Positions 17,422-36,010 of a stretch of 64,000 nt of DNA are shown piece by piece (position 1 is the first letter of the stretch; the number at the start of each line of letters is the position of its first letter). Source of the stretch: an uncultured Microthrixaceae bacterium (GTDB lineage: Bacteria; Actinomycetota; Acidimicrobiia; Acidimicrobiales; DATDAH01). The DNA lies in assembly GCA_963701565.1 (NCBI GenBank), contig CAVPAN010000007.1, forward strand, positions 25,362-89,361. The letters are read 5' to 3'. The notes beneath the pieces were generated by a model that saw only the letters and a program-made list of their open reading frames with translations, was not told the DNA's origin and did no database searches. A program made the translations under genes and the position numbers.

Positions 17422-17461
17422 TGCCACAACCAGCAAATAACCGTCGAGTACCCGAAAGCCC

Positions 17462-18457: not shown

Positions 18458-18841
18458 CCGATGTTTGCGTTGTTGTTCAACGTTGTTTGGTTACGGCGGC
18501 CCCGCTGCTGCACCGCCGCACGCGGCCCCAGTTTCAGCCAGCGGCTGTCTGCCGCGCTGGGCACGTCTTGGACAGGGACGATGAAAGGCAGGATAACCGT
18601 CCACGGCTTTGATCAGGCTTTTCTTCAGCGCAATCGTGCTCGTAATCTTAATCGGGGCCGATTTGCCTGGGGAGCAGGCTTAAAGCGGGCTGGTTGTTGA
18701 ACGGTTGCAGGCAGGTTAAAGGCAATGATATGTCCGGCTCGCGGAAATGCCAAATCCAGGCGGGAAGGGAGGGCGGACGGCCAACTGGCGGAAGCGTCCA
18801 ACTCCACGGGGAAAAGCAGTTGTTAACGTGCGCGGCTGGCG

Positions 18842-20367
18842 TTAGAGGTGCGCCTGGCTGCGCAGGTATTTGGCCTGCTCCAAGTAATGCCTGCCTCGCG
18901 CTTTGTCCCCCATGCGATTCAGCACTACGCCGTAAATCTGATTGGTTACAGGATTGTTGCGGTTAAGTGCCAGAGACTTCTGCGCCGCGGTTCGCGCTTG
19001 GTGATACATGCTGCGATGCAAGTAGACTTCTGCCAGCATACGGTACAAGATTGCCGAATCGGGATGTCGCGAGATGGCTTCTTCGAGCAGACCCGTTGTT
19101 GTCTCGAGATCTCCCTGAGCGATTAACGCTTTGGCTTTGTTGCCAATAGTTATCTCGTACGGTTGCGAGCTGGCGACGGGGACGTTGTCCGCCGCGGCAG
19201 TTGGACCGATGTTGGCTAACGACTGCACGGGTGGCAGACGTTCCGTTGATGCATCATCGTCGGACGATACGTTTTCGCAGCGGGCGGAAACCGCTTGGGC
19301 TGACTCCCAGTTGCACCGATCCTGCAAGCGGCGGGCTTCGTACCGCAGGGCCTCGGGGGTTCCGATGACCGTGCACCCGTTCAGGTTGGCGATTGAGTAG
19401 CCGAACGGTCCGACCAGCCGTTCCAAGGCCCGAGGTAAAGAGGTATCGGTGACGCGTGCCGAAACCGTTCCGGACAGACTTTCGTGGCAGCGAATGGGAT
19501 GTCCCATCCGTGCCGTCAGTTCGTCCGCCAGCTGTTGGACCTCAATGGTCTGAGCGTCGATCGTGAAGTGCCCAGTGGCCGGATCTTCGTGCACGGTCAC
19601 GTATGGTGCGCAGACCTTGGCATGGTGCGATACTGGCTTGGCGGACGCCGACTCGAGTGACGCAGCGATTACAGCACGCTCCTCTGGTTTCAGGAATTCT
19701 CGCTTGACGGCAGAGGATATTTTCAAAGTAGCGACCGTCCGATTGGCCTTGTCGCGCATCGTGACCGTACTCACGGTGGACGAGGCTTCGCTGTTCACAT
19801 GCCGGGCGATCTCGCCGCTCTCGGCGACGTGCAGCTGGACGGCATGCAATTCGACCGCGGACAAGTCGTTAGTCTCGTGGAGTGGGACGATGCCTGCCGG
19901 CTGAGTTTCGGTTGTTGCCGAATCCGCGAGTGCGGCGCGGTTTGCTCCGTCACCCGAAACGGACTCCGCTGACGTCGGGTATGGTGAACCGCTGGCAGGA
20001 ACAAAATCCCCGGAATTCTGGGGGCTCTTGGGGTCGATTGTTGGTACGAGCACTTCTGGCTTCAGCGGCGGATACGGTATCGGCTCAAACGTGTTTGCAT
20101 TTTCGCTGTGAGCGATTTCGTTCTGGTCGACTTCACAGTGGGCAACACACTGCAGGCACTCCGCTGGGGATCGGCAGTTGCCTGTAGGTGTCGGGCAAGT
20201 GTCACAGGGAAGCAAGTCGGGCAGGACGTCTACAGTTGCGGGCGTCAGCTGGGACGCCTGCAGATTTGAGCGCGGTGACGCTCGACCATCCACAAGGCTG
20301 CCACGCCGGCAGATAGTAACGCTACCCAGGCGAATAGTCTCAGAACAATACCTATCTTCGATGACAT
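18842..20367 (-). CDS. Membrane-anchored Cys-rich / TPR-tailed protein of unknown function
   Basis: ORF 18842..20293 (483 aa) ends in TPR-like helices (AKALIAQGDLETTTGLLEEAISRHPDSAILYRMLAEVYLHRSMYHQARTAAQKSLALNRNN...). A signal-anchor MSSKIGIVLRLFAWVALLSAGVAALW starts at ATG 20367, one frame off, which implies a frameshift near 20,290. Confidence 0.5.
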
Positions 20368-20661
20368 GCTCCCCCCCCGGACAACGCTGCTCGCAGGCTG
20401 ATTAGCCGCCAGCCAAAGCAAGTGTCACTCCGCCGACATGGCGAGCTGAAATCGTACAGCTCAACTTGAAAACACAGCGGTTTGAAGTTCTTATCGTCAA
20501 TGCACAGATTCGACGTGATCGAAAAAACCGGAATAACCGTTAAAGCCGGCCGATCCTGACACGATCTAGCAATGCTAGTGGCAAGGCGAGCCGCAGAGCG
20601 AGTCCCTCGGCGAGCCGCGGGGCGTAAGCCCGCGTGAGGGGTCGTTGCCCGACCAACCCTC

Positions 20662-21100
20662 AGAGCGTCTGAGATCGGTTGGGAATATTACGCTTCTTGG
20701 TTGCGTGAACGTCGCTGGTCGTGGGCTTACGCCGCACGGCTCGCCTGAATGGTGGAGCGTCGAGTTCGGTTGGCAACGTTACGCTTTGTGGTCCGTTTGC
20801 GTCGCCGGTCGTCGGCTTACGCCGCACGGCTCGCCTGAATGGTGGAGCGTCCGAGATCATTTGATGACGTTACGCTTTGTCGTCCGTTTGCGTCGCTGGT
20901 CGTGGGCTTACGCCGCACGGCTCGCCTGAATGGTGGAGCGTTCGAGTTCGGTTGGCAACGTTACGCTTTGTGGTCCGTTTGCGTCGCTGGTCGTGGGCTT
21001 ACGCCGCACGGCTCGCCTGAATGGTGGAGCGTCCGAGTTCGGTTGGCAACGTTACGCTTTGTGGTCCGTTTGCGTCGCTGGTCGTCGGCTCACGCCGGCG
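20662..21100 (-). repeat. Tandem array B': the same 91-bp unit in inverted orientation, ~5 copies
   Basis: TGGAGCG unit starts are at ~20663 (degenerate), 20753, 20843, 20934 and 21025. The units are the reverse complement of array B (…GTCGCTGGTCGTGGGCTTACGCCGCACGGCTCGCCTGAATGG), with the local variant GAGTTCGGTTGGCAACG. Confidence 0.9.
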
Positions 21101-22035
21101 GCGCGCCTGGCCGGGCGTTGTGCCAGTCGAGCCCTACGTCCAGCTGTGCGGCGGAGTGTGTGATGGCTCCCACACTAATGCGGTTGACGCCAGTTTCCGC
21201 GATCTGCCGGACCGTATTTAGGGTGATGCCTCCCGACGCTTCCAGCAGGACGGCGGGATTCTGTTGATCACGCAGCGATACTGCCGCCCGCAGCTGATCG
21301 AGCCGCATATTGTCCAGCAGCACGATATCGGGGGCTGCGGCGAGCGCGATTTTCAGCTGATCCAGTGTATCGACCTCGATTTCCAGGATCAGTCTCTCGG
21401 CGCTTGCGGCGCAAAACACCCTCGTTCGTTCGACTGCCATGGCCACGTCGAAGGAGTCGGAGGCACTCCCCTGTCCCAGTGCCAAATGGTTGTCTTTGAT
21501 GAGAACGGCGTCGAACAGGCCCAGGCGATGATTCGTGCCGCCGCCGCAGTGCACGGCATATTTTTCCATCCGCCGCCAGCCTGGGATCGTCTTGCGCGTG
21601 TCGCAGATCACAGCGCCGGTATCGACGATCTGCGCGACATACTGCGCGGTCAGCGAGGCGATCCCTGACAAGTGGCCGATCGTGTTCAGCAAGATGCGCT
21701 CCATCGCCAGGATATCGCGGGCAGAACCGGACAAGCTGCCCAGCTTAGTCCGGGCGGCGAGGACCTGTCCGTCCTGCAGGCATGGCTGCCATTTGACGGC
21801 AATCGCCATTTCATCAATCAGCAGGTCGGCCACTCTTAATCCAGCCGCAATACCGGCCGCACGCGCAACAACCGCTGCGCTACCCTCGTGCCTCCCGCGG
21901 AATCAGCGAGAGGGATGTGATATCGTAGGAGCGGCCGAAGTCTTCTCGAATCGCCAGCCTCAAAATGGAACGCATGTCGTATTCCAATTCCGCGTCCCAA
22001 TCGACTTGTCGATGAATGATCGAATTCGCATTCAT
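21090..22035 (-). CDS. nadC: Nicotinate-nucleotide pyrophosphorylase (quinolinate phosphoribosyltransferase), one frameshift
   Basis: ORF 21090..21833 has ICDTRKTIPGWRRMEKYAVHCGGGTNHRLGLFDAVLIKDNH and LLEASGGITLNTVRQIAETGVNRISVGAITHSA. The N-terminus MNANSIIHRQVDWDAELEY...ITSLSLIPREARG lies in ORF 21880..22215. The joint is near 21,880. Confidence 0.8.
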
Positions 22036-22207
22036 GATGTTCTTGGACGGTTCCTTGTGGCGGCCGTTGTTAACGCGCCATAATAGAGCAGGACGGCCGC
22101 CAGTCGTCCACCGCGTTCGCACAGGAGTCGCTACGCCCTGCGACAGCTTCGTTGCAGAAGAAATGATCCACGCGGCAACCCGCCTGTCAAACAATTGGTC
22201 CGAAACG

Positions 22208-22658
22208 ATGTCCACTCATGCCCGGTTGACGAAGGCTGGCCGTACTCGGCAAAAGGCGGCTTCTCAAGCGGGTACTCGGGCAGCGCCTGCCACTGAGTTG
22301 TTCCTGGCCCTGGTCGTCTGCATCGGTCTGGCGGCCATGCTCGGCTGGACATCCTGTCGAGGCCAGGGGCATCGGCTGTTGGATCTCGGACGAAGTTTCA
22401 CCGCAGGCGGTCCCCTATTGCGTAGAATTCACCACAGCAACCTGGCAGGACCTGGCTCAGATTCCCGGCATCGGCGAGACGCTTGCCAAGCGGATTGTTG
22501 ACGCTCGGGATCGAGAAGGAAAGTTGGACAGCCTCGACGACTTGCGGAAGGTTCGCGGGATTGGTCCTCAAAAACTGATCCAGATCGGCCAGCATCTTCA
22601 ATTCACAGAAACAGGTCGCCCGGCGGCCGACTCGCAACCCAGAGAAAATCGCGAATGA
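22208..22658 (+). CDS. ComEA-like helix-hairpin-helix DNA-binding protein (one frameshift)
   Basis: [11 protein letters not shown]...[16 protein letters not shown] supplies a TM segment. After a shift near 22,400 the reading gives [49 protein letters not shown]. The TGA at 22656-22658 overlaps the uvrB ATG. Confidence 0.7.
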
Positions 22659-24696
22659 AGTTCGAACTGGAAAGTCCGTTTGCCCCGGCGGGGGATCAGC
22701 CGCAGGCGATCGAAGCCCTGGTGCGCGGGTTGCAAGAGCAGCGTCGTCACCAGGTGTTGATGGGAGTCACGGGGTCAGGCAAGACATTCACGATGGCCAA
22801 CGTGATTGCCGCCATGCAGAAACCCACGCTGATTATCTCGCACAACAAGACCTTGGCGGCGCAGCTTTACTCCGAGTTTCGGCAATTCTTCCCCCGTAAC
22901 GCGGTCCACTATTTTGTCAGCTATTACGATTACTACCAACCGGAAGCTTACATTCCGCAACGCGACATCTATATCGAAAAAGATGCTTCGATCAATTCCG
23001 AGATTGACCGCTTGCGACTGGCATCCACCAGCTCTTTGGTCAGTCGCAGCGATGTGATCATCGTGGCCAGTGTTTCCTGCATCTATGGTTTGGGATCGCC
23101 TGACGACTATCGCAGCATGATGGTGGCGCTGCATACGGGTCAGCTGGTCGATCGTGACGACGTGCTGCGGCGGTTGATCGACATCCAATACGAGCGAAAC
23201 GATGTCGGATTCGAACGTTCCAAGTTCCGGGTGCGCGGGGACTGTGTTGAAGTCTGGCCGGCGTACGAGGACTACGCTTATCGCATTGAGTTATGGGGTG
23301 ACGAGATTGAGCAGCTCTCGATCATCAATCCGATCACCGGGGAACCAATCAGCACCATGGATCGCATGTTCCTCTACCCGGCAAAACACTTTGTCATGCC
23401 TGATGATCGCATTGCGGCCGCGGTGGAGACGATCCGGGAAGAACTAGAGGTGCGGTTGGAGCAGTTGCGGCAGCATGGCAAGCTGTTGGAGGCTCAACGC
23501 TTGTCGGCACGGACGCGTTACGATTTGGAAATGATGACAGAAGTTGGCTACTGTCCCGGCATCGAGAATTACAGTCGTCCCTTGTCGGGTCGTCCTCCCG
23601 GCTCCACGCCTGACACTTTGTTCAATTTTTTCCCGGAAGAGTTCTTGTTGTTCGTCGACGAATCCCACGTAACGATTCCGCAAATCCGCGCGATGTTCGC
23701 CGGAGATCAAAGCCGCAAGCAGACGTTAGTGGAACATGGGTTTCGCCTGCCCAGCGCGCTTGACAACCGACCGCTGAAATTCGAGGAATGGGAAGCCAAG
23801 GTGCATCGTGCGATTTTTGTCTCCGCGACGCCGGGCGAGTATGAGCTGCGGCAGTCGGGTGGGGAAGTAATCGAGCAGGTCATCCGACCCACGGGACTGC
23901 TCGATCCGGTCCTGGAGATATTTCCGGCGCGGCAACAGGTTCCACACTTGTTGGAGCAAATCCGTGAGCGCGCGCAGTTGGGGGAACGCGTCCTGGTCAC
24001 CACACTCACCAAGCGGCTGGCCGAAGACCTATCCGCTTACTTGTGCGAGCAGGGAGTGGCCTGTAAATGGCTGCACAGCGAGCTGGATGCCTTCGCACGC
24101 GTGGATTTACTGAGGGAGCTGCGGGAAGGGGCGCTTCGAAGCGCTCGTGGGCGTCAACCTGTTGCGCGAAGGACTCGATCTGCCGGAAGTCTCCCTGGTG
24201 GCGATTCTGGACGCGGATAAAGAGGGATTCTTGCGGAGTGAGACTTCATTGGTTCAGACAATCGGCCGTTCGCGCGAAATGTAAATGCCAAAGTGATCCT
24301 CTATGCCGATACGATCACCGACTCCATGCAACTCGCGATCGACGAGACGCAACGTCGGCGAACGTTGCAGGAGGCCTACAACCAGCGACACGGCATCACC
24401 CCAGAGACTATCAAGAAATCGATTCAGGCGAGTATTGAATCCGATGTTCAGCGCACTGCGCCGCCCGCGAGGCGGTCGCGGCCAGCGACGCTGCACCGGC
24501 CGCCAGCCAGGAATATCTGGAGGAGCTGGAAGCGGAAATGATGAAGGCAGCTGACGAGTTGGATTTCGAGCGGGCTGCAATGCTCCGCGACCGCATCCGG
24601 GAGCTGCGTGACGGCAATGGCGTCGCCAGTAAACCCAAAACAGGACGACGGGGACGAAAATCGAGTCGCAGCGTCCCGCGTCCGAAAAAGATTTAG
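22655..24696 (+). CDS. uvrB: Excinuclease ABC subunit B (3' quarter frameshifted at least 3 times)
   Basis: ORF 22655..24220 reads [23 protein letters not shown]...[15 protein letters not shown]... Other frames carry [40 protein letters not shown] and [23 protein letters not shown]. They also hold the UVR-domain tail [26 protein letters not shown], ending at TAG 24694-24696. Confidence 0.85.
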
Positions 24697-24814
24697 AGCC
24701 TATCCCAAAAGCTCGTACGTAGTGTGGGCCTGCTGGCCCGCGAAGAGGTTTTGGGATAGGCTCTTGGCTCGAGCGCCACGCAATAAAAATCCGCCGCTCG
24801 ATCGGGTTACAATC

Positions 24815-25633
24815 ATGCCTACAGACCCTATACGCCACATCCACAATATTGGCTTCGTGTCTACACGGACCTGTGGCACCGATGGCGTCAGCCTGGAGAT
24901 TGGCAAGTGGACGCATGTGCTGGAACATCTTGGCTACGATTGCTACTTCATTGCGGCAAGTCCGATCGCCCTGCAGACCGAAGCTTCGTGATCGACGAAG
25001 CGGACTTCCTGCATCCGACAATCCAACAGATTAATCGCCAGGCCTTTGGCAGTCAGCTTCGCAGTCAGGAACTCAGCCGGCAGATTCGGCGGATCGCCGA
25101 ACATTTGAAGACGCAGCTGTATCGAGCCATCGAACAGTTTCTGTTGGACCTGCTGATTGCACAGAACTCACTGACGATTCCACTGAATATTCCGCTGGGG
25201 GCGTGCTGCTGGAGATCCTGATTGAGACCGGATTGCCCTGCATCGCCCATCATCACGACTTTGCCTGGGAGTCGCCAGCGGTTCCTGGTGAATTCGGTCG
25301 ATGATTACATCGATTCGGCGTTTCCACCCGCCATCGCCGAAATCGAGCATGTTGTGATTAACTCGCTGGCCGGCCTGGAATTCGGACGACGGACCGGGCT
25401 GACCTATCGTGTGATTCCCAACGTAATGGACTTCGCCCATGGCCCCGGAAGTCGTCCGCCAAGTCCGGCACGTCCTGGCCGATTCCGAGTACCGCCAGCA
25501 AATGGTAGAACACAACTATGCGGCGGCCCGGCAGTTTTATTCGTACGAGCGAGTTGAACACGAGTTGCGGGCGATCTTGGACAAGCCACGGCCCTGCGCG
25601 GCCCCGCGGCCGGATGGGGCCGGTTCCCCCTGA
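24815..25633 (+). CDS. Glycosyltransferase-like protein (GT4-like N-terminal half plus C-terminal tail; fragmented, possibly internally deleted)
   Basis: The reading MPTDPIRHIHNIGFVSTRTCGTDGVSLEIGKWTHVLEHLGYDCYFIA.../...LLIAQNSLTIPLNIPLG.../...GLPCIAHHHDFAWE.../...HVVINSLAGLEFGRRTGLTYRVIPNVMDF / APEVVRQVRHVLADSEYRQQMVEHNYAAARQFYSYERVEHELRAIL* crosses 4 frames. No EX7E-containing second Rossmann half is visible. Confidence 0.45.
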
Positions 25634-25881
25634 AATGACTTGCCACGGCACTTGCCATTCGAGTAAACTCGCTGTCGTCGGTCGGTGTGCCGTGCAGAAG
25701 TGCAGACGCTTGTTGCCAGCTTCTGCCGACTCTGCGTATCGTTCCGGGAATTTGGCAGACGACGGCTACGGAGGATGACCAGCAATGCCGGCCGCTTGTA
25801 CGCTTGACGCTTATCAGCGGGTCGAGCTGGGCTTGCACATTGACCATGCCTGTTTCGACGTGGACCAGCAGAGACGAGGCG

Positions 25882-26273
25882 ATGAACGCACGACGCTTCA
25901 GGAAGATGGTGGTTGGCGTCCTGTTGGCAGGCGTGGCGGTCAGCGGTACGGCCGTCGGTGCCCTGCAATGGCGGATTCACCAGGCGGTGGCGAACATTCT
26001 GCGGTCGCGCAAGAAGCCTTCCCGCATGCTGGAGATGATGTCGCCGCACTGCGTGACATGATGACCTCCGATTCTCATGCACTTCGCGACCGGAATCTCG
26101 CCGTGTGGACGTTGGGAAGGCTGAGTGACCCTCGTGCCTTGCCGGATCTGCAGAGCCGCCTGCACGGGAGACGCCTGCGATCACAACAAAGATCTGTGCC
26201 AGTACGAATTACAGAAAGCTATCCGACGCTGTGGACGGGCCCGGAGGGCCGATACAACCTTAGCCGGCGGTGA
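25882..26273 (+). CDS. Small membrane-anchored HEAT-repeat-like protein (frameshifted; 3' end uncertain, 26273 or 26322)
   Basis: MNARRFRKMVVGVLLAGVAVSGTAVGAL supplies a TM segment. Then AALRDMMTSDSHALRDRNLAVWTLGRLSDPRALPDLQSRL follows, a HEAT/PBS-lyase-like motif. Confidence 0.4.
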
Positions 26274-26283
26274 TAACCGCCGG
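26264..26283 (+). terminator. Stem-loop at end of planctomycete-like segment
   Basis: CCGGCGG-TGATAA-CCGCCGG is a 7-bp stem whose loop contains tandem stops TGA TAA. No T-tract follows it. Confidence 0.3.
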
Positions 26284-26291
26284 ATAGATAG

Positions 26292-26860
26292 GATGTCTGT
26301 TCCGTTCATGCACCCGCGATGACTGAATGCCAGCTGGACCAGGCACTACAGGCCGGTTATGAAACTGTCAATCGTGCCGAACAATCCAATGCGCAAATAT
26401 TTATTGGCGGTGAAATGGGCATTGCAAACAGTACCGCTGCATCCGCACTTGCCTGTATCCTGCTCAATACACCTCCCGCGCAACTCACCGGACCTGGAAC
26501 CGGACTTGATGCCAGCGGTATTGCACATAAATTGCATGTCATACAACGCGCCCTTGGACTACATAATCCTGTTGTCACATGCCCTATGGAAGCATTGCGC
26601 CGCGTGGGTGGTTTCGAGATCGCCGCACTGACCGGGGCCTATATTCGCTGTGCTCAGCAAGGCATACCCGTTATCATCGATGGTTTTATTTCTTCTGTCG
26701 CAGCGCTTACCGCAGCACAACTGCAACCTGATATAACACATTGGCTATTGTTTGCCCATCGCTCCACGGAACCCGGCCACCATCATGTGCTCAACGCACT
26801 TGGCGCCAGTCCATGGCGCTCGATCTGAAGCTTCGCCTGGGAGAAGGGAGTGGCGCCGCC
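26292..26860 (+). pseudogene. cobT: Internal fragment of cobT (nicotinate-nucleotide--dimethylbenzimidazole phosphoribosyltransferase), lower GC, one frameshift
   Basis: The frame reads DVCSVHAPAMTECQLDQALQAGYE...IFIGGEMGIANSTAASALACILL...GFEIAALTGAYIRCAQQGIPVIIDGFISSVAALTAA... After a shift near 26,805 it reads MALDLKLRLGEGSGAA. The N-terminal third and the extreme C-terminus of the family are missing. Sampled 60-nt lines give 31/60 and 26/60 GC. Confidence 0.8.
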
Positions 26861-27610
26861 GTCTCGGACCTCCTCGTGGCGGACCCGGACCTGGACGCCT
26901 TCCTGGCCCTCGGTGACCTGCAGTACCCGAGCGGGACCCTCAACGACTTCCAGCAGCACTACGAGTCCAGCTTCGGCCGGGTGAAGGCGATCACCCACCC
27001 GGTCGTGGGGAACCACAAGTACCAGTCCCGTGATGCGAGCGGGTACTTCGACTACTTCGGCGCGGTTGCCGGGCCCCGGGGGCGGGGGTGGTACAGCTTC
27101 GACCTGGGGGCCCGCTGGCACCTGGTCGCGCTGAACTCGAACTGTGACGAGGTGGGCTGCGGTGACGGCTCACCGCAGCTGGACTGGCTCCGGTCGGACC
27201 TGCGGGCCAACACCCGGCCCTGTGTGCTGGCCTACTGGCACCACCCCCGCTGGAGCTCGGGCGGCAACCCGCGCCAGGACCTCCGGGTCGAGCCCTTCGT
27301 CCGGGTGCTGGCCCAGCACGGGGCGGAGGTGGCCCTCGCCGGCCATGTGCACAACTACGAACGCTTCGCCCCCCAACGGCCTGACGGCACCGCCGCGGTG
27401 GACGGCCTGCGGCAGTTCGTGGTCGGCACCGGCGGTCGGTCGGTCGGCCCCGACCATGGTTTCCGAGAGCCATCCCTGCGCCACTCCCAGCGTCGCATAG
27501 CCGGGGTGTTCGGTCTGGCCCGCCTCGTGCTCACCCACACCGGCTACTGGTGGTCCTTCGTGGACGAGACCGGGAGGGTCCGGGACTCGGGCTCGGCCCG
27601 CTGCCGCTAG
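26861..27610 (+). CDS. Metallophosphoesterase (calcineurin-like), 5'-truncated at the junction
   Basis: The motifs FLALGDLQY, VVGNHKY, AYWHHP and AGHVHNYER are present, but the first D-x-H motif and any start codon are absent. The reading frame is fused to the cobT fragment in ORF 26741..27610. Confidence 0.75.
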   Translation, partial: VSDLLVADPDLDAFLALGDLQYPSGTLNDFQQHYESSFGRVKAITHPVVGNHKYQSRDASGYFDYFGAVAGPRGRGWYSFDLGARWHLVALNSNCDEVGCGDGSPQLDWLRSDLRANTRPCVLAYWHHPRWSSGGNPRQDLRVEPFVRVLAQHGAEVALAGHVHNYERFAPQRPDGTAAVDGLRQFVVGTGGRSVGPDHGFREPSLRHSQRRIAGVFGLARLVLTHTGYWWSFVDETGRVRDSGSARCR

Positions 27611-27716
27611 GCGCCGGCCAGGAAATGGGCCGAATGGCCCGGTCAAGGCTCCGCCGGATCCCGCCGATCCAGGGCACAGCGTCGGACATCCCGTCCGCGC
27701 ACGTGGGAGGAACGCC

Positions 27717-29192
27717 ATGTTCAGGAAATCGATCTTCGGGTTCGTGGCCCTCGCCACGATCTCCTTGTTGGGGGCCCTGGCGCCACCGTCGGCAGGGGCT
27801 GTGGTCCCCACCGATCAGACGACACTGCAGTTGACGGGAACCAGCGCGGTCGTGCCCCTGGTGGGCGACTTCAACGGCGACTCCGCGGAGGACATCTTCT
27901 GGTACGGCCGCACGTCGGCACCGGACTCGATGTGGTTCAACAAGGTCATCTCCTCGGGCGCCGACGGGATGAACACGTTCACGACGAAGGCCGTCACGGT
28001 GGCGGGAAACTACGTCCCGCTGGTGGGCGACTTCAACGGTGACGGCATCGACGACGTCTTCTGGTACGCGGGCGGCACCGCCGCCGACTCGGTCTGGTAC
28101 TTCCACGCCGACAAGAGCCACACCGCGGTGCAGTACACCGTGAACGGCACCTACCGTCCTGTCGTCGGCAACTTCGACACCATCGATCCGGTCACCCCCA
28201 CCGAAGGTGGTGCCCAAGTACACGAGCGCGACGACATCTTCTGGTTCCCGACAGGTACGGGCAACAGCTCGCTGTGGTCCGGCAACCTCGACAACACCTT
28301 CGGCAAGCGGGTCTACGCCAACCGGCCGCCCACGGGCGCTCAGGCGCTCGTCGGTGAGTTCAAGCTGCAGGACGGCGAGCTGGAGCCGAGCCCGGACATC
28401 TTCTTCTACCGCCCTGGCACCGGAACCGACTCGCTCTGGGTGAGCCTCGGTGACGGTCGGTTCACGCCCTCCGCGAAGACCGTGCACGGCCAGTTCCGCC
28501 CGGTTGTGGGCAACTTCGACCAGACCGGATCCCGGCTCGCTCTCCCCGAGGAAGCGATCGAGGAGTATGGCGAGGTGACGGACTACGGCGAGGTGAAGAG
28601 CGCCCTGCTCGACTACCTGGCCGACAAGTGCTTCAACGGCAACATGCAGAAGTGTGACGACCTGCACACGATCGCTGACGAGCACGAGGCCGTTCCGTCC
28701 GGGTACCACTCCTACGGCGAGACATGCGGCCTGCGCCGCGGCCCCGGTGTCATCAACTGCGTCGAGCAGACGTGGGAGCCGGCGCCGACCGGTCTGGACG
28801 ACATCCTCTGGTACGGCGCGGGCACGGCGGCGGACAAGCTCTGGATCAACACGGGCTCGTCCTTCACCATCAGTTCGCTCACGATCGGGTTCACGGCGAT
28901 CCCAACGGTGATCCGCAGCGGGCCGGGGGGCTACACCGGCGGCGACCGGATCCTGTGGAACAGCGCCACGGGCCCCGAGAGGATCTGGGCCCCGACCCCG
29001 GGCGGCACCTCGTTCGGGTCGACGACCCTGGCGGACATGGGCACCACCCGCAAGCCGCTGGCTGCGGAGTTCACGGTCCGGACCCTGGGCTCACAGTACC
29101 TCCAGGACGAGGTGCTGTGGTACGCCCCGGGCAACAACACGGACCAGAAGGAGACCCTCTGGCTCGAGCCGGGCGGCCCCTGGCCGACCTGA
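27717..29192 (+). CDS. Secreted FG-GAP/VCBS-like repeat (beta-propeller-type) protein
   Basis: This is an intact 491-aa ORF with a GGGAGG RBS and signal peptide MFRKSIFGFVALATISLLGALAPPSAGA. It has about 8 repeats of the type PLVGDFNGD..(D/E)DIFWY..GT..DS.W. Confidence 0.7.
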   Translation: MFRKSIFGFVALATISLLGALAPPSAGAVVPTDQTTLQLTGTSAVVPLVGDFNGDSAEDIFWYGRTSAPDSMWFNKVISSGADGMNTFTTKAVTVAGNYVPLVGDFNGDGIDDVFWYAGGTAADSVWYFHADKSHTAVQYTVNGTYRPVVGNFDTIDPVTPTEGGAQVHERDDIFWFPTGTGNSSLWSGNLDNTFGKRVYANRPPTGAQALVGEFKLQDGELEPSPDIFFYRPGTGTDSLWVSLGDGRFTPSAKTVHGQFRPVVGNFDQTGSRLALPEEAIEEYGEVTDYGEVKSALLDYLADKCFNGNMQKCDDLHTIADEHEAVPSGYHSYGETCGLRRGPGVINCVEQTWEPAPTGLDDILWYGAGTAADKLWINTGSSFTISSLTIGFTAIPTVIRSGPGGYTGGDRILWNSATGPERIWAPTPGGTSFGSTTLADMGTTRKPLAAEFTVRTLGSQYLQDEVLWYAPGNNTDQKETLWLEPGGPWPT

Positions 29193-29214
29193 TCGGTCAG
29201 CGGTAGGCGCATGC

Positions 29215-29254
29215 GGCCGGGGTCCCGGGACGGAGACGTCCCGGGACCCCGGCC
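29215..29254. terminator. Perfect 18-bp-stem hairpin between convergent genes (bidirectional terminator candidate)
   Basis: GGCCGGGGTCCCGGGACG-GAGA-CGTCCCGGGACCCCGGCC sits between the stop at 29192 (+) and the stop at 29287 (-). Confidence 0.6.
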
Positions 29255-29286
29255 TCTCGCCGTTCCCGGCGCGCCACCCTGAGCCC

Positions 29287-30526
29287 TCAGCCGGCGGCGC
29301 GCCGCGGGGTGAAGCGCACGGCGGTGATGGCATGGCCCTCGACGGTGAGCACCTGCGCCGTCCAGTCGCCCAGCGCCACCCGCTCGCCGGGCTCGGTGGG
29401 GATGTGGCCCAGCTCGTCGAGGACGGCACCGGCAACGGTCGTGTACTCGCCCTCGGGGATCTCGACCCCGATGTCCTCGAGATCGTGGACGGGGAACCGC
29501 CCAGGGAGCACGAACGAGCCACCGGGGAGCCGGCGGACGGTGAGGATGTCGCGGTCGGACTCGTCGTAGATCTCGCCGACCAGTTCCTCGACCAGGTCCT
29601 CGACGCTGACCAGGCCCTCGGTGCCGCCGTGCTCGTTGACGACCAGGCAGATCTGCTGGCGGTCGGCCTGCATGCGGCGCAGGGCGTCGAGGACCTGGAC
29701 CGACTCGGGCAGGAAGAGGGCGGGACGGGTGTGGGCCGAGACGGGGTCGTTCGGGCGGCCGATCAGGTCGCGGAGGTGGATGGTGCCGATGACCTCGTCG
29801 AGGTCCTGGCCGGCGGCGGTCACCGGGGCCCGGGAGTGGCCGGCCTCGGCCAGGAGGGCGGCCGCGGCCTGGCAGGGCATGGCGCCGTCGACGGGCACCA
29901 CGTCGGCCCGCGGACGCAGCACCTGGCGCAGGGTCCGCTCCGCCGCCTCGAGGGCGCCCTCGATGATCTCGCGCTGGTCGGCGGAGAACGTGGTGTGCTC
30001 GGCGATGATGCCGCGCACCTCCTCGGTGCTCATCTCCTCGGCCCGGGCGTCGGGGTTGCCGCCGACCAGGCGCACCACGAGGTCGGTCGAGTGCGAGAGC
30101 ACCCAGACGACCGGGCGGGTGACCGTGGACATGACCGCCAGCGGACGCGCCGCGAGCAGGCCCCAGCGCTCGGTGTTCTGCATGGCCAGGCGCTTGGGGA
30201 CCAGCTCGCCGAGGACGAGGGTCACATAGGACAGGATCAGGGTCACCACCACGACCGACACGGGCCCGGCCGCGTTCCCGAGGAAGCTGAGCGGCTCCTC
30301 CAGGGGCACGGCCAGGGACACCGCGGCGGTGGCCGAGGCCAGGAAGCCGGCGAGGGTGATGCCGATCTGGATGGTGGCCAGGAACTGGTTGGGGTGGCGG
30401 GTGAGGTGCGCCAGCGTCCGGCCCCGTCGGCCCGCCGGACTCCTCGAGCCGGCGGATCTGGCTCTCGCGCAGTGACACCAGCGCCAGCTCGGTGCCGGTG
30501 AGCGCGGCGTTGATCGCCACCAGCAC
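29287..30526 (-). CDS. Hemolysin/CNNM-family protein (DUF21-CBS pair-CorC_HlyC), 1-2 frameshifts near the 5' end
   Basis: ORF 29287..30321 and its upstream open frame read HPNQFLATIQIGITLAGFLAS...GELVPKRLAM...two CBS-like segments...LVVNEHGGTEGLVSVEDLVEELVGEI...GEYTTVAGAVLDELGHIP. The N-terminus VLVAINAALTGTELALVSLRESQIRRLEE lies in another frame, with the joint at GGCGGG near 30,43x. Confidence 0.8.
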
Positions 30527-30573
30527 GGCGACGAGGAGCGAGTTGGGGGCCGGTCCCGTTCACAGGGGTGAGG

Positions 30574-31306
30574 CTACGGGTCCGCCCATTCGACCGAGAG
30601 GATCCGGTGGTCCGCGCCCTTGTGGATGACGACGTCGGCCCCGGCCCGGGTCGGGGCGATGTGCTCGAGCAGGTTGGGGTGGTTGACCCCGTCCCAGACC
30701 GCACGGGCCAGGTCGGCCACGGCCGCCTCGTCGAGGTCGATCCAGGCTCGGTAGAAGGATGTCGGGTCGTCGACCGCGGCCTCGACGAGCGTCTGGAAGC
30801 GGGCGACGTACCACGCCACGACGTCGGCCTCTTCGGCGTGGATGTAGACGCCGAGGTCGGCGAACGCGTCGCTGGAGGGCCACGACGCCCTCGACCACGA
30901 GCACGTCGGGGCGATCGAGGTGTCCGGGCGTCCTCGAGCACGTCATAGCGCTCGTGGGAGTAGACGGGGACCTCGAGCGGAGTCCCGCCCGTGCCGGGCG
31001 GCGGTCACGACCGCCTCGAGGCGGTCCAGGTCGTAGGTCTCCGGGTAGCCCTTCCGGTCCAGGAGGCCCCGGCTTCGCCAGGACGGCGTTCGGGTGGAGG
31101 AAGCCGTCGGTGGAGACGACCGCGACACGGTCACCGTTCGCCCGGAGGTGGTCGGCGAGGTGCGCGGCGATGGTCGACTTGCCGACCGCGACCGGGCCGG
31201 CGACGGCGAGGACCCGGGTGCGTGCCCGGCGTCGGCGACAGACGGTCGGCGATGGCACCGAGGGGGTCGGCGACGGGCACCGGCCCGACGCTAGCCACCC
31301 GGGCAT
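30574..31306 (-). CDS. coaA: Type I pantothenate kinase-like P-loop kinase (at least 4 frameshifts)
   Basis: VLAVAGPVAVGKSTIAAHLADHL...VAVVSTDGFLHPNAVL is in ORF 30560..31306 and GLLDRKGYPETYDLDRLEAVV in 30943..31134. The C-terminal DDPTSFYRAW...AVWDGVNHPNLLEHIAPTRAGADVVIHKGADHRILSVEW is in 30574..30819. The region before the P-loop is shorter than in classical CoaA. Confidence 0.6.
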
Positions 31307-31373
31307 GGGCGACCGGGTGGCGACAAGGGCTACTCTCTGCGTTCACAAGCTCACACGAGGGAGGGAACCCGGC

Positions 31374-31590
31374 ATGGGTCTGTTCGACCGGTTCAGGAAG
31401 ACGGCGGAAGACGTCAAGGACAGGGCCACCGACCTCGCCGACGAGCACGGGGACGAGGCCAAGGACGCCATCGACAAGGCGGCGGACTTCGCCTCGGACA
31501 AGACCGACCACGACGACGACGATCGACAAGGGTGCCGACGCCGCGAAGGACGCCATCGACAAGCTCGCGGGCGACGACACCCCCAAGTAG
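31374..31590 (+). CDS. Small MT0933-like (antitoxin-family) protein, one frameshift
   Basis: The ATG is preceded by GAGGGAGGGAA. The product is MGLFDRFRKTAEDVKDRATDLADEHGDEAKDAIDKAADFASDKTDHDDD / IDKGADAAKDAIDKLAGDDTPK*. Confidence 0.45.
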
Positions 31591-31641
31591 CCCCGGCGCC
31601 GGCGGCGGGCCGGCGTCCCACGGGCAGGAAAGGCGGACACG

Positions 31642-32982
31642 ATGTCCCAGCCACCCGAACTCCTCGATCCCCAGGCGCTGGTGCGCGTGGACTTCGCCCT
31701 GGTCCGGCGGGGTTACAGCGCCGACCAGGTCGATTCCGTGCTGCAGCAGGCGGCGGCCGCGCTGGCCGCCGCGCAGCAGCGGATGGCCGAGCTGGCCGAC
31801 GAGGTGGAGGCCCTCCGTGAGCAGGAGCCGCCACCGGACGTCGCCGACCTGGATGACAACGAGCTGATGCTCCGCCTGGGCGAGAAGACCGCCCGGGTCC
31901 TCGAGGCGGCCCGCGAGAGTGCGGCCGAGCTCGAGCACAAGAGCCAGGAGCGGGCCACGGCCACGGTCAACCGGGCCAAGGAGGAGGCGCTCCGGGTCCG
32001 GTCCGAGGCCGAGCGGGTCATGCGCGAGACGCGGACCCGGTTGGAGGCCCTCGAGAAGGAGACCGACCGGAAGGTCCGCGAGCTGCGCCTCGCGGCCGAG
32101 GCCGACGCCGAGCGCCTGCGGACCCAGGCCGAGGAGGTGCTCCGTTCGTCGCGGGTCGACGCCCACGGCGTCGAGCAGGAGGCCACGAGCCGGGCCGAGT
32201 CCCTCACCCAGGAGGCCACCGAGAACGCCGCCCGGGCCCGGGCCAAGGTCGAGGCCCTGCTGACCACCACCCGGACCCAGGTCGAGTCGACCCGGGCCAC
32301 CGCGGAGGAGGACGCCGCCCGGCTGCGTCACGAGGCCGAGGCCGAGGCCGACGCGCGGCTGGCCCAGATCGCGGACACGGTGGCGGGGAAGGTGGGCGAG
32401 GCGGAGGCCCGCGCCGAACGCATCGCCGCGCAGGCGGAGGCGGCCTACGAGGAGCGGGTCGCCCTCGGTCGGGAGCGCGGACGAGAGCTGATCGCCGAGG
32501 CCGAGCTGAAGCGAGCCGAGGTCCTGCGCCAGCTGGCCCGGACCCGGCAGCGGGCCCAGCTCAACCTCGAGCAGCTCCGGGTCGGCCGGGAGCGCCTGCT
32601 CACCGCGTACGAGGTGGCCCGGGCCACCATCGACCAGGCCACCGGGGAACTGGACGTCGCCCTGCCCGAGGCCAAGGCTCTGGCCGAGCGTCTGACGGCC
32701 CGCGTCGGCGACGACGCGGCCCGCTCGCTGCAGGAGCTGGAGGCCGAGTTCGAGCTGGAGCGCCTCGAGGACCTGCGCATCCTGGCCGACGACGACCCTG
32801 GGGCCCGGGTCCCGCCGCGGCCCCGGGCCGAGGGGGTGGCGGCGGTCGAGGGCGAGGTCGAGGTCGAGGTCGAGGACCAGTGCCCGAATCCGCCCCGCCG
32901 CCGAAGGTGTTCGACAGGGAGGCCGCCGAAGCGGAGGCTGACGCCGAGGCGGTGGTCACGGGCCCCGGACCGACGCCGGTGA
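31642..32982 (+). CDS. DivIVA-domain coiled-coil protein (3' end uncertain)
   Basis: The N-terminus VRVDFALVRRGYSADQVDSVLQQAAAALAAAQQRMAELADEVEALRE matches the DivIVA N-terminal pattern. About 350 aa of Ala/Glu/Arg-rich coiled coil follow. The tail may continue by frameshift into ORF 32880..33110. Confidence 0.7.
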   Translation: MSQPPELLDPQALVRVDFALVRRGYSADQVDSVLQQAAAALAAAQQRMAELADEVEALREQEPPPDVADLDDNELMLRLGEKTARVLEAARESAAELEHKSQERATATVNRAKEEALRVRSEAERVMRETRTRLEALEKETDRKVRELRLAAEADAERLRTQAEEVLRSSRVDAHGVEQEATSRAESLTQEATENAARARAKVEALLTTTRTQVESTRATAEEDAARLRHEAEAEADARLAQIADTVAGKVGEAEARAERIAAQAEAAYEERVALGRERGRELIAEAELKRAEVLRQLARTRQRAQLNLEQLRVGRERLLTAYEVARATIDQATGELDVALPEAKALAERLTARVGDDAARSLQELEAEFELERLEDLRILADDDPGARVPPRPRAEGVAAVEGEVEVEVEDQCPNPPRRRRCSTGRPPKRRLTPRRWSRAPDRRR

Positions 32983-33171
32983 CCGACGGCTCGGAGGACG
33001 AGGTGATCGACCTCACCGACGCGTCGGTCGACCGAAGTCGACGAGCCGGCCGAGGACCCCGCGCCGACCGTGCCCTGACAGGATCCTCAGAGATCGTTGT
33101 GGTGAGCTGAGCCAGACGCCGACGAGGGCCCGCCACGGACCGGACGGGTTGCTCCGGTACATTCCGGGGTC

Positions 33172-35255
33172 TTGCGGACTGCACTCCGACTGCTCGTGGT
33201 GCTGGCCCTCGGAGCCGGCGGACTGGCCCTGGCCACGGTGGCGATCGCGCCCCAGGTCGGGGAGTTCTTCACCGCGGGCTCGGTCGGAGCCCCGGAGGTC
33301 AACCTCCGGCCGCTGGCCGAGCGCTCGATCGCCTACGCCGACAACGGTTCGGTCCTGGCCACGTTCCACGCGGCCGAGAACCGCCAGGAGGTGCCGCTGC
33401 GGCGCATCCCCCGGACGGTGCGACGGACGATCCTGGCCGTCGAGGACGAGGACTTCTTCCAGCACAACGGCGTGAACCTGCGGGCCACGTTGCGGGCCCT
33501 GTTCGAGAACGTCAGCTCGGGTGGCATCGAGCAGGGCGGCTCGACCATCACCCAGCAGCTGGTGAAGCTCTCGCTGCTGTCGCCCCGCCAGGACCTCAAC
33601 CGCAAGGCCCGGGAGGCCATCCTCGCCATCGAGCTCGAGAAGACGATGAGCAAGCAGGAGATCCTCGAGCGGTACCTGAACCAGGTGTACTTCGGGGGCG
33701 GCGCCTACGGGGTGCAGGCCGCGGCCGAGCTCTACTGGGGCCAGAACGTCGAGGATCTCGACTGGGGCCAGGCGGCCCTGCTGGCCAGCCTCATCCAGAA
33801 CCCGGTCGCCTACGACCCCGTCCTCGAGCCCGAGATGGCCCGCGAGCGGCGGCGGGTCGCCCTCGACCTGCTCGTCGAGCTCGGCTACATCACCCAGGAG
33901 GAGGCGGACTTCTACGACGTCGCCCCCCTGCCCGAGGCCCGCATCGACGTCCTCCCCGAGCCCAACGACTACTTCGTCGAGGTGGTCAAGCAGCAGCTCC
34001 TGTACATGGAGGAGCTCGGCGCGACGCCGGCGGAGCGCTACAACGCCGTCTTCAAGGGCGGCCTGCGGATCGAGACCACCTTCAGCCCCGAGGCCCAGTT
34101 CCTCGCCCTGTCGGCCCGCAACAACGTCCTGCCCGACACCGGCGGGCAGTTCACCGCGGCGATGGCCGCGGTCACGCCGCAGACGGGCGCCGTCCGGGCG
34201 ATGGTCGGCGGCCCCGGCTTCGACAAGTACCGGTACGACCTGGCCACCCAGGGGCCCCGTCAGCCGGGGTCGTCGTTCAAGATCTTCGTGCTCGCCGCGG
34301 CGCTCGAGCCGGGCTGGTCCCCGACGACATCCTCGACGGCACCGGGCCCTGCACGTTCCCCAACCCGGGCGGCTACCCGGACCCCTACGTGGCCAACAAC
34401 TTCGGCGACAGCGGGGGCAGCAACGGGACCATCACCTCCAGCACCACGTCCTCGTCGAACTGCGGGTTCCTGCGCCTGGGCCAGTTCGTCGGCCTCGACC
34501 AGGTGGTCGAGACGGCCCGGGCCATGGGGATCACGACCGAGCTCGACGCCCGGAACCTCTCGCTGCCGATCGGCACCGAGGAGGTCCACCCCATCGACAT
34601 GGCGGGGGCGGCCGCGGTGCTGGCCAACGGCGGGGTCCGCAACGAGCCCTACTTCATCGAGCGCGTGACGGACCGGGACGGCAACGTCATCTACCAGCAC
34701 GACGCCCCGGGCCGACAGGTCGTGTCCCAGCAGACGGCCTGTCTGGCCACCCAGGTCCTCGAGGCCAACGTCCAGGGCGGCACCGGCACCGCGGCCGCGC
34801 TGCCGAACATGGCGGCGGCGGGCAAGACGGGCACGGCGCAGAACTTCGGGGACGCCTGGTTCGTGGGCTACACGCCCTTCCTGGCCACCGCGGTGTGGAT
34901 GGGCAATGCCGAGGCCCGGGTGCCGATGACCAGCGTGGGCGGGATCTCCGTCACCGGTGGCTCCTACCCGGCGGAGATCTGGCAGGACTTCAACGAGCCG
35001 GCCCACAACGGGCTGACCTACACGGGCTTCCCGACCTGCAGCCCCACTCGGTCGGGTCGCAGCCTGGCCGACTTCTTCGATCCCGACCCGGAGGTCAACA
35101 CGACCGACAGCCTGCCCCCGACACCGCTCCACCGGCCGTCACCTGCCCGGCCGGCTACCTGCCGGGCGACCTGAACGGTGACGGCATCGCCGAGAGCTGT
35201 GTCGCCGTGGCCACCCCCACGACGGCGGCCGCCGCCGCCGCCGAGCACGCCGTGA
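33172..35255 (+). CDS. Class A penicillin-binding protein (transglycosylase + transpeptidase), at least 2 frameshifts
   Basis: The GT51 motifs AVEDEDFFQHNGV and GGSTITQQLVK, plus the SxxK motif GSSFKIF, are in ORF 33172..34668. SSN and KTGTAQNFGDAWFVGY are in ORF 34389..35174. The 3' end is either 35174 or TGA 35253-35255, which overlaps the next GTG. Confidence 0.85.
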
Positions 35256-35997
35256 GCGACGCCGACCTGCCCGAGGAGCCGCGGTCGTCCCTCGAGCGGC
35301 TACTGGCCATCCAGGAGCAGGACACGGCGGTGGACCAGCTCGCTGCACCGGCGCGACCACCTGCCCGAGCGCGCCGCCCTGGTCGAGCACGAGGGCCGGG
35401 TGTCGGCCGTCGAAGCCGAGCGGTCGAGCCGCGAGGAGCGACGTGAGGAGCTGGCGGCGACCATCGCCCGGCTGCAGACCGACGTCGGCGCGTTCGAGGC
35501 CCGGATCGCCGAGGTCACCCGGACCATGCACTCGGGGGCGGTGACCGTGCCCCGCGAGCTGCAGGCGCTGCAGCACGAGCAGGAGTCCCTGCGGCGGCGC
35601 CAGGACCACCTCGAGACCGAGGAGCTCGAGATCATGGAGGAGCTCGATCCCCTCACCGAGGAGGTGGCGGGCCTCGACGGGCGGCTCGAGGAGCTGGCCG
35701 CGGAGGGCGAGCGGCTGGCCGAGGCCCTCCTGCAGGCCGAGGTCGACCTGGAGGAGGAGCTGACCGCGGTGACGCGGCCGTCGGGCGGCTGCCGCCGATG
35801 GCGTCGACGCCGAGCTGCTGGCCACCTACGAGGGTCTCCGGGGCGAGCTCGGCGGCATCGCCGTGGCCCGGCTGGTCGGCTCGGTGTGCGGTGGCTGTCA
35901 CCTGGGCCTCTCGGCCGTCGAGGTCGACCGCATCAAGAAGCAGCCGCCCGACGCGCTCGTCCGCTGCGACGAGTGCGGCCGCCTGCTCGTCCGCTGA
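35252..35997 (+). CDS. Zinc-ribbon coiled-coil protein (COG1579/DUF164-like), at least 2 frameshifts
   Basis: The reading SLERLLAIQEQDTAVDQL...VPRELQALQHEQESLRRRQDHLETEELEIMEEL... ends in another frame with IDAELLATYEGLRGELGGIAVARLVGSVCGGCHLGLSAVEVDRIKKQPPDALVRCDECGRLLVR*. Confidence 0.6.
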
Positions 35998-36010
35998 AGG
36001 CCCGGCGCCG

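What the first reader, a model, noticed from the sequence alone, without database searches (positions are those of the whole stretch)
26264..26880. Two abrupt junctions make the window a three-part composite (planctomycete-like DNA, a 570-bp cobT fragment, then actinobacterial DNA)
Hand counts of sampled 60-nt lines show three GC levels. Line 3001-3060 gives 33/60 GC. Lines 26401-26460 and 26641-26700 give 31/60 and 26/60. Line 26881-26940 gives 43/60. Gene content switches at the same points. After the stem-loop at 26264-26283 the sequence enters the middle of a cobT gene (...HAPAMTECQLDQAL...GGEMGIANSTAASA...LDLKLRLGEGSGAA), which lacks both its N-terminal third and its end. At about 26,861, inside one continuous ORF (26741..27610), it runs directly into the middle of a metallophosphoesterase that lacks its first metal-binding motif and any start codon. 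The right-hand 37 kb is core actinobacterial housekeeping DNA (rnpB, trpD, PBP, glpK, whiB, DivIVA). Junctions that truncate genes from three unrelated lineages point to a chimeric contig, contigs concatenated without spacers, or a contaminated bin. They do not point to an integrated island. Any linkage inferred across 26.3-26.9 kb should not be trusted.
Basis: partly seen in the sequence, partly recalled or inferred. Interest (0 to 1): 0.6.

Follow-up and report, generated by a model that had tools for sequence, protein, structure and literature searches.

The report
Chimeric contig joining three unrelated genomes
The two junctions are real in the sequence, but they are an assembly error inside one public 472.7-kb metagenome contig that glues planctomycete DNA, a 0.57-kb piece of a foreign cobT gene and Acidimicrobiales DNA together, so nothing biological should be read across them.

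Summary
GC is 58.9% for 1-26284, 54.0% for 26285-26860 and 72.8% for 26861-64000, and all four hand counts are exact. The middle piece is an internal cobT fragment (Pfam DBI_PRT positions 125-305 of 329). It runs in frame into a metallophosphoesterase (MPE) that lacks its first 231 codons.

Junction 2 is fixed to the base. Three 94%-identical sister contigs (0.79-0.90 Mb) align from window position 26861 onward. They carry the intact 480-aa MPE plus 10 kb of upstream DNA that the window lacks. Junction 1 lies between 26284 and 26304. It rests on gene truncation, GC3 (0.44 against 0.66 ± 0.05) and lineage.

The left segment is Planctomycetota (UvrB 73%). The right segment is Acidimicrobiales (TrpD 92-96%, WhiB, conserved gene order). 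The visible relatives of the cobT piece are Gamma- and Betaproteobacteria.

The new result concerns the source. Exact look-ups place left-segment proteins, right-segment proteins and the fusion protein that spans junction 2 each on a single NCBI+ENA contig of 472,664 bp. The joins therefore sit inside one deposited contig. The window is also rich in 1-bp indels.

Verdict: a chimeric assembly, about 95% likely to be an artefact. It is not a real feature and is of low interest except as a quality warning.

The parts
1..26284 (.). Left segment: Planctomycetota chromosome DNA, GC 58.9%. It carries a Ser/Thr kinase with TPR repeats, bipA/typA, an ABC1 kinase, nadC, uvrB, a GT4 glycosyltransferase and a small HEAT-repeat protein. 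Many of these genes are broken by 1-bp frameshifts.
   Evidence: UvrB is 73% identical to a Planctomycetota MAG and 71% to Mariniblastus and Rhodopirellula. Pfam hits are. uvrB is read in 4 frames. The STK, NadC and truncated UvrB products are each on one 472,664-bp NCBI+ENA contig.
22655..24696 (+). Planctomycete-type uvrB, split over four reading frames by three 1-bp indels between 24.1 and 24.5 kb.
26264..26283 (+). GC-rich stem-loop (8-bp stem, GAUA loop). It is the last feature that can be assigned to the left segment.
   Evidence: -21.3 kcal/mol, z = -4.5
26284..26304 (.). Junction 1 zone. The break lies between the hairpin and the first codon that aligns to cobT homologues (VHAPAM, starting at 26304).
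   Evidence: There is no cobT N-terminal third in any frame upstream. No adapter, repeat or shared restriction site is present.
26304..26860 (+). Internal fragment of a cobT gene (nicotinate-nucleotide--dimethylbenzimidazole phosphoribosyltransferase). It has no start and no natural end. GC is 54%, GC3 is 0.44, and there is one frameshift near 26812.
   Evidence: Pfam DBI_PRT positions 125-305 of 329, E = 1e-69. Alignment A2. Best visible relatives are 62-64% identical, and the named ones are Gamma- and Betaproteobacteria. GC3 z = -4.1 against left-segment genes.
26860..26861 (.). Junction 2, resolved to the base.
   Evidence: Megablast to L165, L166 and L167 (94% identity) starts at 26861, which corresponds to nucleotide 694 of their MPE gene. 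In the base-level alignment the 40 bases to the left are unrelated. The same start point is seen against the more distant relative L082.
26813..27610 (+). Artefactual fusion ORF: 16 cobT-derived residues (MALDLKLRLGEGSGAA) followed by MPE residues 232-480. The longer TTG-start version begins at 26741.
   Evidence: This exact 265-aa product is on record (P0409) on one 472,664-bp NCBI+ENA contig.
26861..27610 (+). 3' part (249 codons) of a CBM96 + metallophosphoesterase gene. It lacks 231 N-terminal codons, which include metal-binding motif I.
   Evidence: Metallophos positions 27-191 of 191. Alignment A1. The intact 480-aa orthologues are in L165-L167.
26861..64000 (.). Right segment: Acidimicrobiales (Actinomycetota) chromosome DNA, GC 72.8%. 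Gene order matches sister contigs: MPE, FG-GAP, CNNM/CorC, PRK-like, DivIVA-like, PBP, then further along FGGY kinase, FAD oxidase, glpD, fur, rubrerythrin, whiB, trpD and an RNase T/GIY-YIG protein.
   Evidence: TrpD is 96%, 92% and 86% identical to relatives, the last named 'Acidimicrobiales bacterium'. Gene order matches L081, L082 and L165-L167. At least 14 frameshifts occur relative to intact relatives. There are 40 1-bp indels in 10.7 kb against L165.
48249..48622 (-). RNase P RNA (bacterial class A)
   Evidence: 214.9 bits, full-length match
56375..56611 (+). whiB-family regulator (78 aa), a marker of Actinomycetota
   Evidence: The exact sequence is named 'WhiB family redox-sensing transcriptional regulator' by its sources.

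Best explanation
The window is a slice of one deposited metagenome contig (472,664 bp, held by NCBI and ENA) that is chimeric.

Shown. About 26.3 kb of a planctomycete chromosome, a roughly 0.56-0.58-kb internal piece of another organism's cobT gene, and at least 37 kb of an Acidimicrobiales chromosome are joined flush. Both joins cut through genes.

Inferred mechanism. The contig comes from an error-prone, probably low-coverage, long-read community assembly. A multi-fragment chimeric read, or a false overlap, was accepted as the only path between unrelated sequences. The short third-party piece is the kind of small fragment that gets ligated between long ones during library preparation. The ORF that reads from cobT into the MPE is an accident of frame.
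For: 1. One record. Each of these exact products has exactly one contig on record, from NCBI+ENA, of length 472,664 bp: the 265-aa fusion product spanning junction 2; left-segment products (the 521-aa frameshift-truncated UvrB, NadC, the 1011-aa STK and a 64-aa GT tail); and right-segment products (FG-GAP, DivIVA-like, DUF3792).

2. The native arrangement is known. Three sister contigs of 791-901 kb from other samples (L165-L167) are 94% identical to the window from 26861 to about 37.57 kb. They carry an intact 480-aa MPE preceded by 10 kb of Acidimicrobiales genes. None of that upstream DNA is anywhere in the window.

3. Three lineages. UvrB is Planctomycetota at 73%. The cobT fragment's visible named relatives are Gamma- and Betaproteobacteria at no more than 64%. 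TrpD, WhiB and gene order are Acidimicrobiales.

4. Composition. GC is 58.9%, 54.0% and 72.8%. GC3 is about 0.66, 0.44 and 0.92. The change point sits at junction 2.

5. Gene truncation. The cobT piece is cut at both ends and the MPE at its 5' end.

6. Draft-quality consensus. The window has 40 1-bp indels in 10.7 kb against L165, whereas L167 differs from L165 by 8 indel events over 21 kb. Frameshifts break uvrB, bipA, the STK, the PBP, glpD, trpD and others. Sister records are named 'contig_N', a style I associate with long-read assemblers; this is my own knowledge and was not tested.

7. No marks of integration. There are no repeats across the joins, no integrase and no tRNA.

Chimeric nanopore reads at the percent level are documented (PMC6156371). 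Chimeric contigs and genomes in public collections are a known problem (GUNC, PMC8201837).
Against: No reads or coverage data could be examined, so the way the false join formed is inferred and not shown.

The record itself could not be fetched: the position index returns nothing for this window's genes.

No adapter remnant is present at either join. This argues against chimeras formed during sequencing, which carry a mid-read adapter (PMC6156371). Ligation chimeras formed during library preparation would not carry one.

Two joins within 576 bp require either a three-part chimeric read or two separate errors.

Junction 1 is not anchored by any close relative of the left segment.
Confidence: 0.88

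Rival explanations
1. Separate contigs were laid end to end without spacers, either when the window was prepared or by the submitter, for example by gapless scaffolding or a merged multi-FASTA of a contaminated bin. On this view the assembler did not create the joins.
For: The joins are flush, with no adapter, no Ns and no microhomology. The middle piece is about 576 bp long, close to a common 500-bp minimum contig length (my own knowledge). The left piece ends right after a strong hairpin. The 70-mer spanning junction 2 was absent from genome contigs and metagenome contigs.
Against: A gene product that spans junction 2 is on record on a single 472,664-bp NCBI+ENA contig, and left- and right-segment products are on a contig of the same length. 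This excludes concatenation at the window-making stage. Only submitter-side joining remains possible. The failed 70-mer scans are uninformative, because this window's own genes are also hidden from the position index (against 62 and 65).
Confidence: 0.06
2. Only junction 2 is artificial. On this view the cobT fragment is a natural remnant at the end of the planctomycete sequence, so junction 1 is not a join between genomes.
For: Bulk GC of the middle piece (54.0%) lies within the low tail of left-segment windows: z = -1.8, with 3.2% of windows as low. No relative covers the left end, so junction 1 cannot be anchored.
Against: GC3 of the fragment (0.44) is below all 123 left-segment coding windows (minimum 0.54, z = -4.1). 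The fragment is well conserved (E = 1e-69) and does not look like a decayed pseudogene. It starts at profile position 125 with no N-terminal third upstream in any frame. Its visible named relatives are all Proteobacteria and none are Planctomycetota.
Confidence: 0.04
3. The molecule is physically real: an Acidimicrobiales chromosome that acquired more than 26 kb of planctomycete DNA plus a proteobacterial gene scrap by illegitimate recombination.
For: The joins are present in a deposited contig. The other end of a putative insert would lie outside the window, so it cannot be checked.
Against: The 'insert' carries core housekeeping genes (uvrB, bipA, nadC) with unchanged foreign composition. 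No integrase, tRNA, IS element or flanking repeats are present. Three sister populations at 94% identity have the uninterrupted locus. A 0.57-kb gene-internal scrap from a third lineage sits exactly at the join. The surrounding consensus is of visibly poor quality.
Confidence: 0.015

Closest known systems
Chimeric (misassembled) contigs and MAGs in metagenome assemblies, the problem addressed by GUNC (PMC8201837)
   Same: The lineage switches abruptly within one contig. The switch coincides with a step in composition and with truncated genes. The native, uninterrupted locus exists in sister assemblies.
   Different: This case has two breakpoints only 576 bp apart and three phyla in one contig. 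The mechanism could not be checked against reads.
Chimeric long reads in nanopore libraries (PMC6156371, and White et al. 2017 as cited there)
   Same: Unrelated molecules are joined end to end at arbitrary positions. A short fragment between two long ones is the expected pattern for ligation concatemers (my own knowledge).
   Different: [quoted passage not shown] The sequencing platform of the source is inferred only from the indel-rich consensus and from the contig names of sister records.
Integrated genomic island or horizontally transferred region
   Same: It is a block of foreign composition next to core genes.
   Different: There is no integrase, no tRNA or att site and no flanking repeats. 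The 'island' consists of another phylum's housekeeping genes. The host gene at the border is cut and its other part is missing. Sister genomes show the intact locus.

Membership tests
Chimeric contig (assembly artefact) | The junction lies inside a single assembled record and not between records. | tested here: met
   The fusion product spanning junction 2, together with left- and right-segment products, is each on exactly one NCBI+ENA contig of 472,664 bp. That it is the same contig is inferred from the equal length.
Chimeric contig (assembly artefact) | The flanks belong to different organisms. | tested here: met
   Planctomycetota UvrB at 73%. Acidimicrobiales TrpD at 86-96%, WhiB and conserved gene order. 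GC 58.9% against 72.8%.
Chimeric contig (assembly artefact) | The native sequence continues past the breakpoint in independent assemblies. | tested here: met
   L165-L167 (94% identity) continue 10.7 kb upstream of the point that matches window position 26861. This was not testable for the left segment or the cobT piece.
Chimeric contig (assembly artefact) | Read support collapses or depth changes at the breakpoints. | not testable with these tools
   No reads or coverage data are available.
Integrated genomic island / HGT | Integration machinery or target: an integrase or recombinase, a tRNA or att site, or direct repeats at both ends. | tested here: not met
   No tRNA genes are present. No repeats are shared across or around the joins. 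No integrase was seen among the proteins scanned near the joins.
Integrated genomic island / HGT | The host sequence is intact or merely split, with both parts of the target present. | tested here: not met
   The 5' 693 nt of the MPE and the native upstream genes are absent from the whole window. The far end of any insert lies outside the window.
CobT / DBI_PRT (PF02277) | Full-length domain (about 329 profile positions) with a start and a stop. | tested here: not met
   Only profile positions 125-305 are present, with one frameshift, no start and no native stop. It is a gene fragment and not a gene.
Calcineurin-like metallophosphoesterase (PF00149) | All metal-binding motifs present, including N-terminal motif I. 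| tested here: not met
   The profile match starts at position 27 of 191. The motif-I region (for example VAAVGDLVC in P0121) lies upstream of the break. The intact orthologue has 480 aa and the window keeps residues 232-480.

The most novel reading that the evidence does not exclude
The joins are physically real. In that case one Acidimicrobiales cell line carries more than 26 kb of unaltered planctomycete core chromosome and a proteobacterial cobT scrap inserted into its MPE gene. That would be a very recent inter-phylum capture of DNA by illegitimate recombination.
Probability: 0.015. Interest if true: 0.8.

Novelty: not a real feature. Interest (0 to 1): 0.07.

Why it matters
The finding has no biological significance. 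Its value is for quality control.

A 472.7-kb contig held by NCBI and ENA contains at least two false joins across three phyla. The contig, or the MAG it belongs to, would therefore give false linkage, false 'horizontal transfer' calls, a fictitious cobT-MPE fusion protein that is already in protein collections (P0409), and wrong taxonomic or contamination statistics.

The contig should be split at about 26,284-26,304 and at 26,860/26,861 (window coordinates). Any feature in this window should be interpreted only within its own segment. The indel-rich consensus also means that many apparent pseudogenes here are sequencing errors.

Tried and rejected
- **Junction-spanning scans.** An exact 70-mer across junction 2 gave no hit in genome contigs or metagenome contigs. 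I first took this as support for concatenation. It is uninformative, because the window's own genes are hidden from the position index although they are present in the protein collection.
- **Adapters, linkers and vector primers.** I aligned 23 sequences (ONT, PacBio, Illumina, 454, M13/T7/SP6/T3) to ±50 bp around each join. Nothing scored above the window background.
- **Restriction sites.** The two join zones share no palindrome, so a cloning or ligation origin at a restriction site is unsupported.
- **Repeats and microhomology.** The longest k-mers shared with the rest of the window are 11 and 13 nt, and no repeat family bridges the segments.
- **Anchoring junction 1 with relatives.** In 80 uvrB loci (genome contigs) and 80 GT loci (metagenome contigs), gene order downstream of uvrB and the GT gene is not conserved, and the HEAT gene has no hit.
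- **GC3 frame plot.** It was too noisy to count frameshifts. I used comparison with relatives instead.
- **Homopolymer bias.** Of the 40 1-bp indels against L165, 29 are not in runs, and insertions outnumber deletions. A simple homopolymer-error picture is therefore not supported.
- **Caution on identity figures.** The homology searches did not list the close relatives (at least 90% identical) of the MPE that cluster with the window's own product. One search gave a best hit of 65%, whereas one search shows P0410 and P0413. The 62-64% ceiling for the cobT piece may likewise be an underestimate.

Full report
**Observation.** The four hand counts (33, 31, 26 and 43 GC per 60 nt) reproduce exactly. 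GC is 58.9% for 1-26284, 54.0% for 26285-26860 and 72.8% for 26861-64000. A 100-bp profile and an order-3 Markov change-point analysis both put the large step at 26.77-26.86 kb. The stem-loop at 26264-26283 is real (8 bp, -21.3 kcal/mol, z = -4.5). ORF 26741..27610 runs without a stop across the second join.

**The middle piece.** Translation gives ...VHAPAMTECQLDQAL...GGEMGIANSTAASA..., followed after a frameshift near 26812 by ...LDLKLRLGEGSGAA. It matches Pfam DBI_PRT (CobT) at profile positions 125-305 of 329 with E = 1e-69, so it lacks both ends of the gene.
- No cobT N-terminal third exists upstream in any frame. That DNA encodes a GT4 glycosyltransferase and a small HEAT-repeat protein.
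- The best visible relatives are 62-64% identical. Every named one is a Gamma- or Betaproteobacterium.
- Bulk GC is only marginally different from the left segment (z = -1.8).
- GC3 is clearly different. The fragment's 0.44 is lower than all 123 left-segment coding windows (mean 0.66, minimum 0.54, z = -4.1).
- Junction 1 is therefore a real discontinuity. It can only be bracketed between the hairpin (26284) and the first aligned codon (26304).

**The left segment.**
- UvrB is 73% identical to a Planctomycetota MAG, 71% to Mariniblastus and Rhodopirellula, and 64-67% to Gemmataceae, Thermoguttaceae and Pirellulales. Non-planctomycete UvrBs score lower.
- Other genes include a Ser/Thr kinase with TPR repeats, bipA, an ABC1 kinase and nadC.
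- Many genes are broken by 1-bp indels. uvrB is read in four frames.

**The right segment.** It carries the following genes:
- RNase P RNA;
- a WhiB regulator;
- TrpD;
- a class A PBP;
- LytR-CpsA-Psr;
- an FGGY kinase;
- GlpD;
- Fur;
- rubrerythrin.

TrpD is 96% and 92% identical to unnamed relatives and 86% to 'Acidimicrobiales bacterium'. Gene order matches a 3.83-Mb contig (L081).

**Junction 2 to the base.**
- A distant relative (L082, MPE 65% identical) has the order TA pair, full-length MPE, CNNM, PRK-like, DivIVA-like, PBP. Similarity to the window begins at 26861.
- Three close relatives are decisive. They are contigs of 791, 896 and 901 kb from three other ENA samples (L165-L167).
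- They align to the window at 94% nucleotide identity from 26861 to about 37.57 kb. The alignment begins at nucleotide 694 of an intact 480-aa CBM96 + metallophosphoesterase gene.
- Upstream they carry a further 10 kb of Acidimicrobiales genes, none of which is anywhere in the window.
- In the base-level alignment the window matches from position 26861, and the 40 bases before it are unrelated.
- The window therefore keeps MPE codons 232-480 only, fused by chance in frame to the cobT tail.

**Which kind of artefact.** I first could not separate 'contigs strung together' from 'chimeric contig'. Exact-sequence look-ups settled it.
- The 265-aa fusion product MALDLKLRLGEGSGAA|VSDLLV..., which spans junction 2, is on record in NCBI and ENA on exactly one contig of 472,664 bp (P0409).
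- The right-segment FG-GAP, DivIVA-like and DUF3792 products have the same single contig length.
- So do the left-segment products: the frameshift-truncated 521-aa UvrB, NadC, the 1011-aa kinase and a 64-aa GT tail.
- All three parts therefore lie in one deposited contig, and a gene caller has already read across the join.
- The earlier negative 70-mer scans and failed position look-ups only show that this window's source is hidden from those indexes.

**Quality of the consensus.**
- Against L165 the window has 45 indel events in 10.7 kb, of which 40 are 1-bp. Most are insertions of G or C outside homopolymer runs.
- L167 and L166 differ from L165 by only 8 and 14 events over 21 kb.
- Against intact relatives, at least 14 frameshifts break right-segment genes: the PBP, glpD, the FAD oxidase, trpD, the FGGY kinase, CNNM and a GT4.
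- This is the signature of a low-coverage or unpolished long-read consensus. That reading, and the reading of 'contig_N' names as long-read-assembler output, come from my own knowledge and were not tested.
- Percent-level chimeric reads are documented for nanopore libraries (PMC6156371). Chimeric genomes in public collections are a recognised problem (PMC8201837).
- No adapter is present at either join. This argues against chimeras formed during sequencing but not against ligation chimeras made during library preparation.
- No repeats, microhomology or shared restriction sites explain the joins.

**Why it is not biology.**
- The 'foreign' 26 kb consists of another phylum's housekeeping genes with unchanged composition.
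- A gene-internal scrap from a third lineage sits exactly at the join.
- There is no integrase, tRNA, IS element or flanking repeat.
- The host gene is cut and its other part is missing.
- Three sister populations have the uninterrupted locus.

**Verdict.** Submitter-side joining is about 0.06. Junction 2 alone being artificial is about 0.04. A real molecule is about 0.015. This is not a real feature. Interest is low, except as a warning that this public contig, its fusion 'protein' and any linkage across 26.3-26.9 kb are unreliable.

Noticed in passing
window 387-2063 (related inverted copy at 2101-2138): A tandem array of a 66-bp unit sits at the left end of the planctomycete segment: 25.4 copies, 90% matches, about 63% GC. 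It creates long spurious ORFs on both strands (ACCLTATSAGERHHSPSELVS repeats). One partial copy lies in inverted orientation just downstream. Its function is unknown.
   Followed up: partly
window 15758-16392 and 20663-21109: Two arrays of the same 91-bp unit (7.0 copies at 98% and 4.9 copies at 89%) lie in inverted orientation and are 93% complementary over 337 nt. They bracket about 4.3 kb that includes a 483-aa TPR protein gene. This could be a repeat-flanked, possibly invertible or mobile, segment.
   Followed up: no
window ~25440-25452: The GT4 glycosyltransferase gene (24.84-25.63 kb) lacks about 159 codons (about 477 bp) internally relative to its closest homologue. L087 residues 276-434 have no counterpart in the window. 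The gene is also split by frameshifts. This is either a real deletion or another assembly defect in the left segment.
   Followed up: partly
window 26861-37578 against L165; also uvrB at 24.1-24.5 kb: The consensus is unusually rich in indels: 40 single-base indels per 10.7 kb against a 94%-identical sister contig. Insertions outnumber deletions, most are G or C, and 29 of 40 are not in homopolymer runs. Sister contigs differ from each other by only 8-14 indel events per 21 kb. Many apparent pseudogenes in this window are therefore probably sequencing errors.
   Followed up: yes
Tool behaviour. The window's own proteins are in the protein collection (one 472,664-bp NCBI+ENA contig), yet the gene-position index returns nothing for them. 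The homology search also did not list the cluster relatives (at least 90% identical) of the MPE: its best listed hit was 65%, while P0410 and P0413 exist. Best-hit identities for window proteins can therefore be underestimates, including the 62-64% for the cobT piece.
   Followed up: partly
L165-L167 10001-11443 (orthologue of window 26861-27610): In the close relatives the phosphoesterase is a 480-aa protein with an N-terminal CBM96 domain (PF24517), followed by a 489-aa FG-GAP repeat protein. The more distant relative L082 has a 346-aa version without FG-GAP and with a PemK/RHH toxin-antitoxin pair upstream. This neighbourhood therefore varies among Acidimicrobiales.
   Followed up: no
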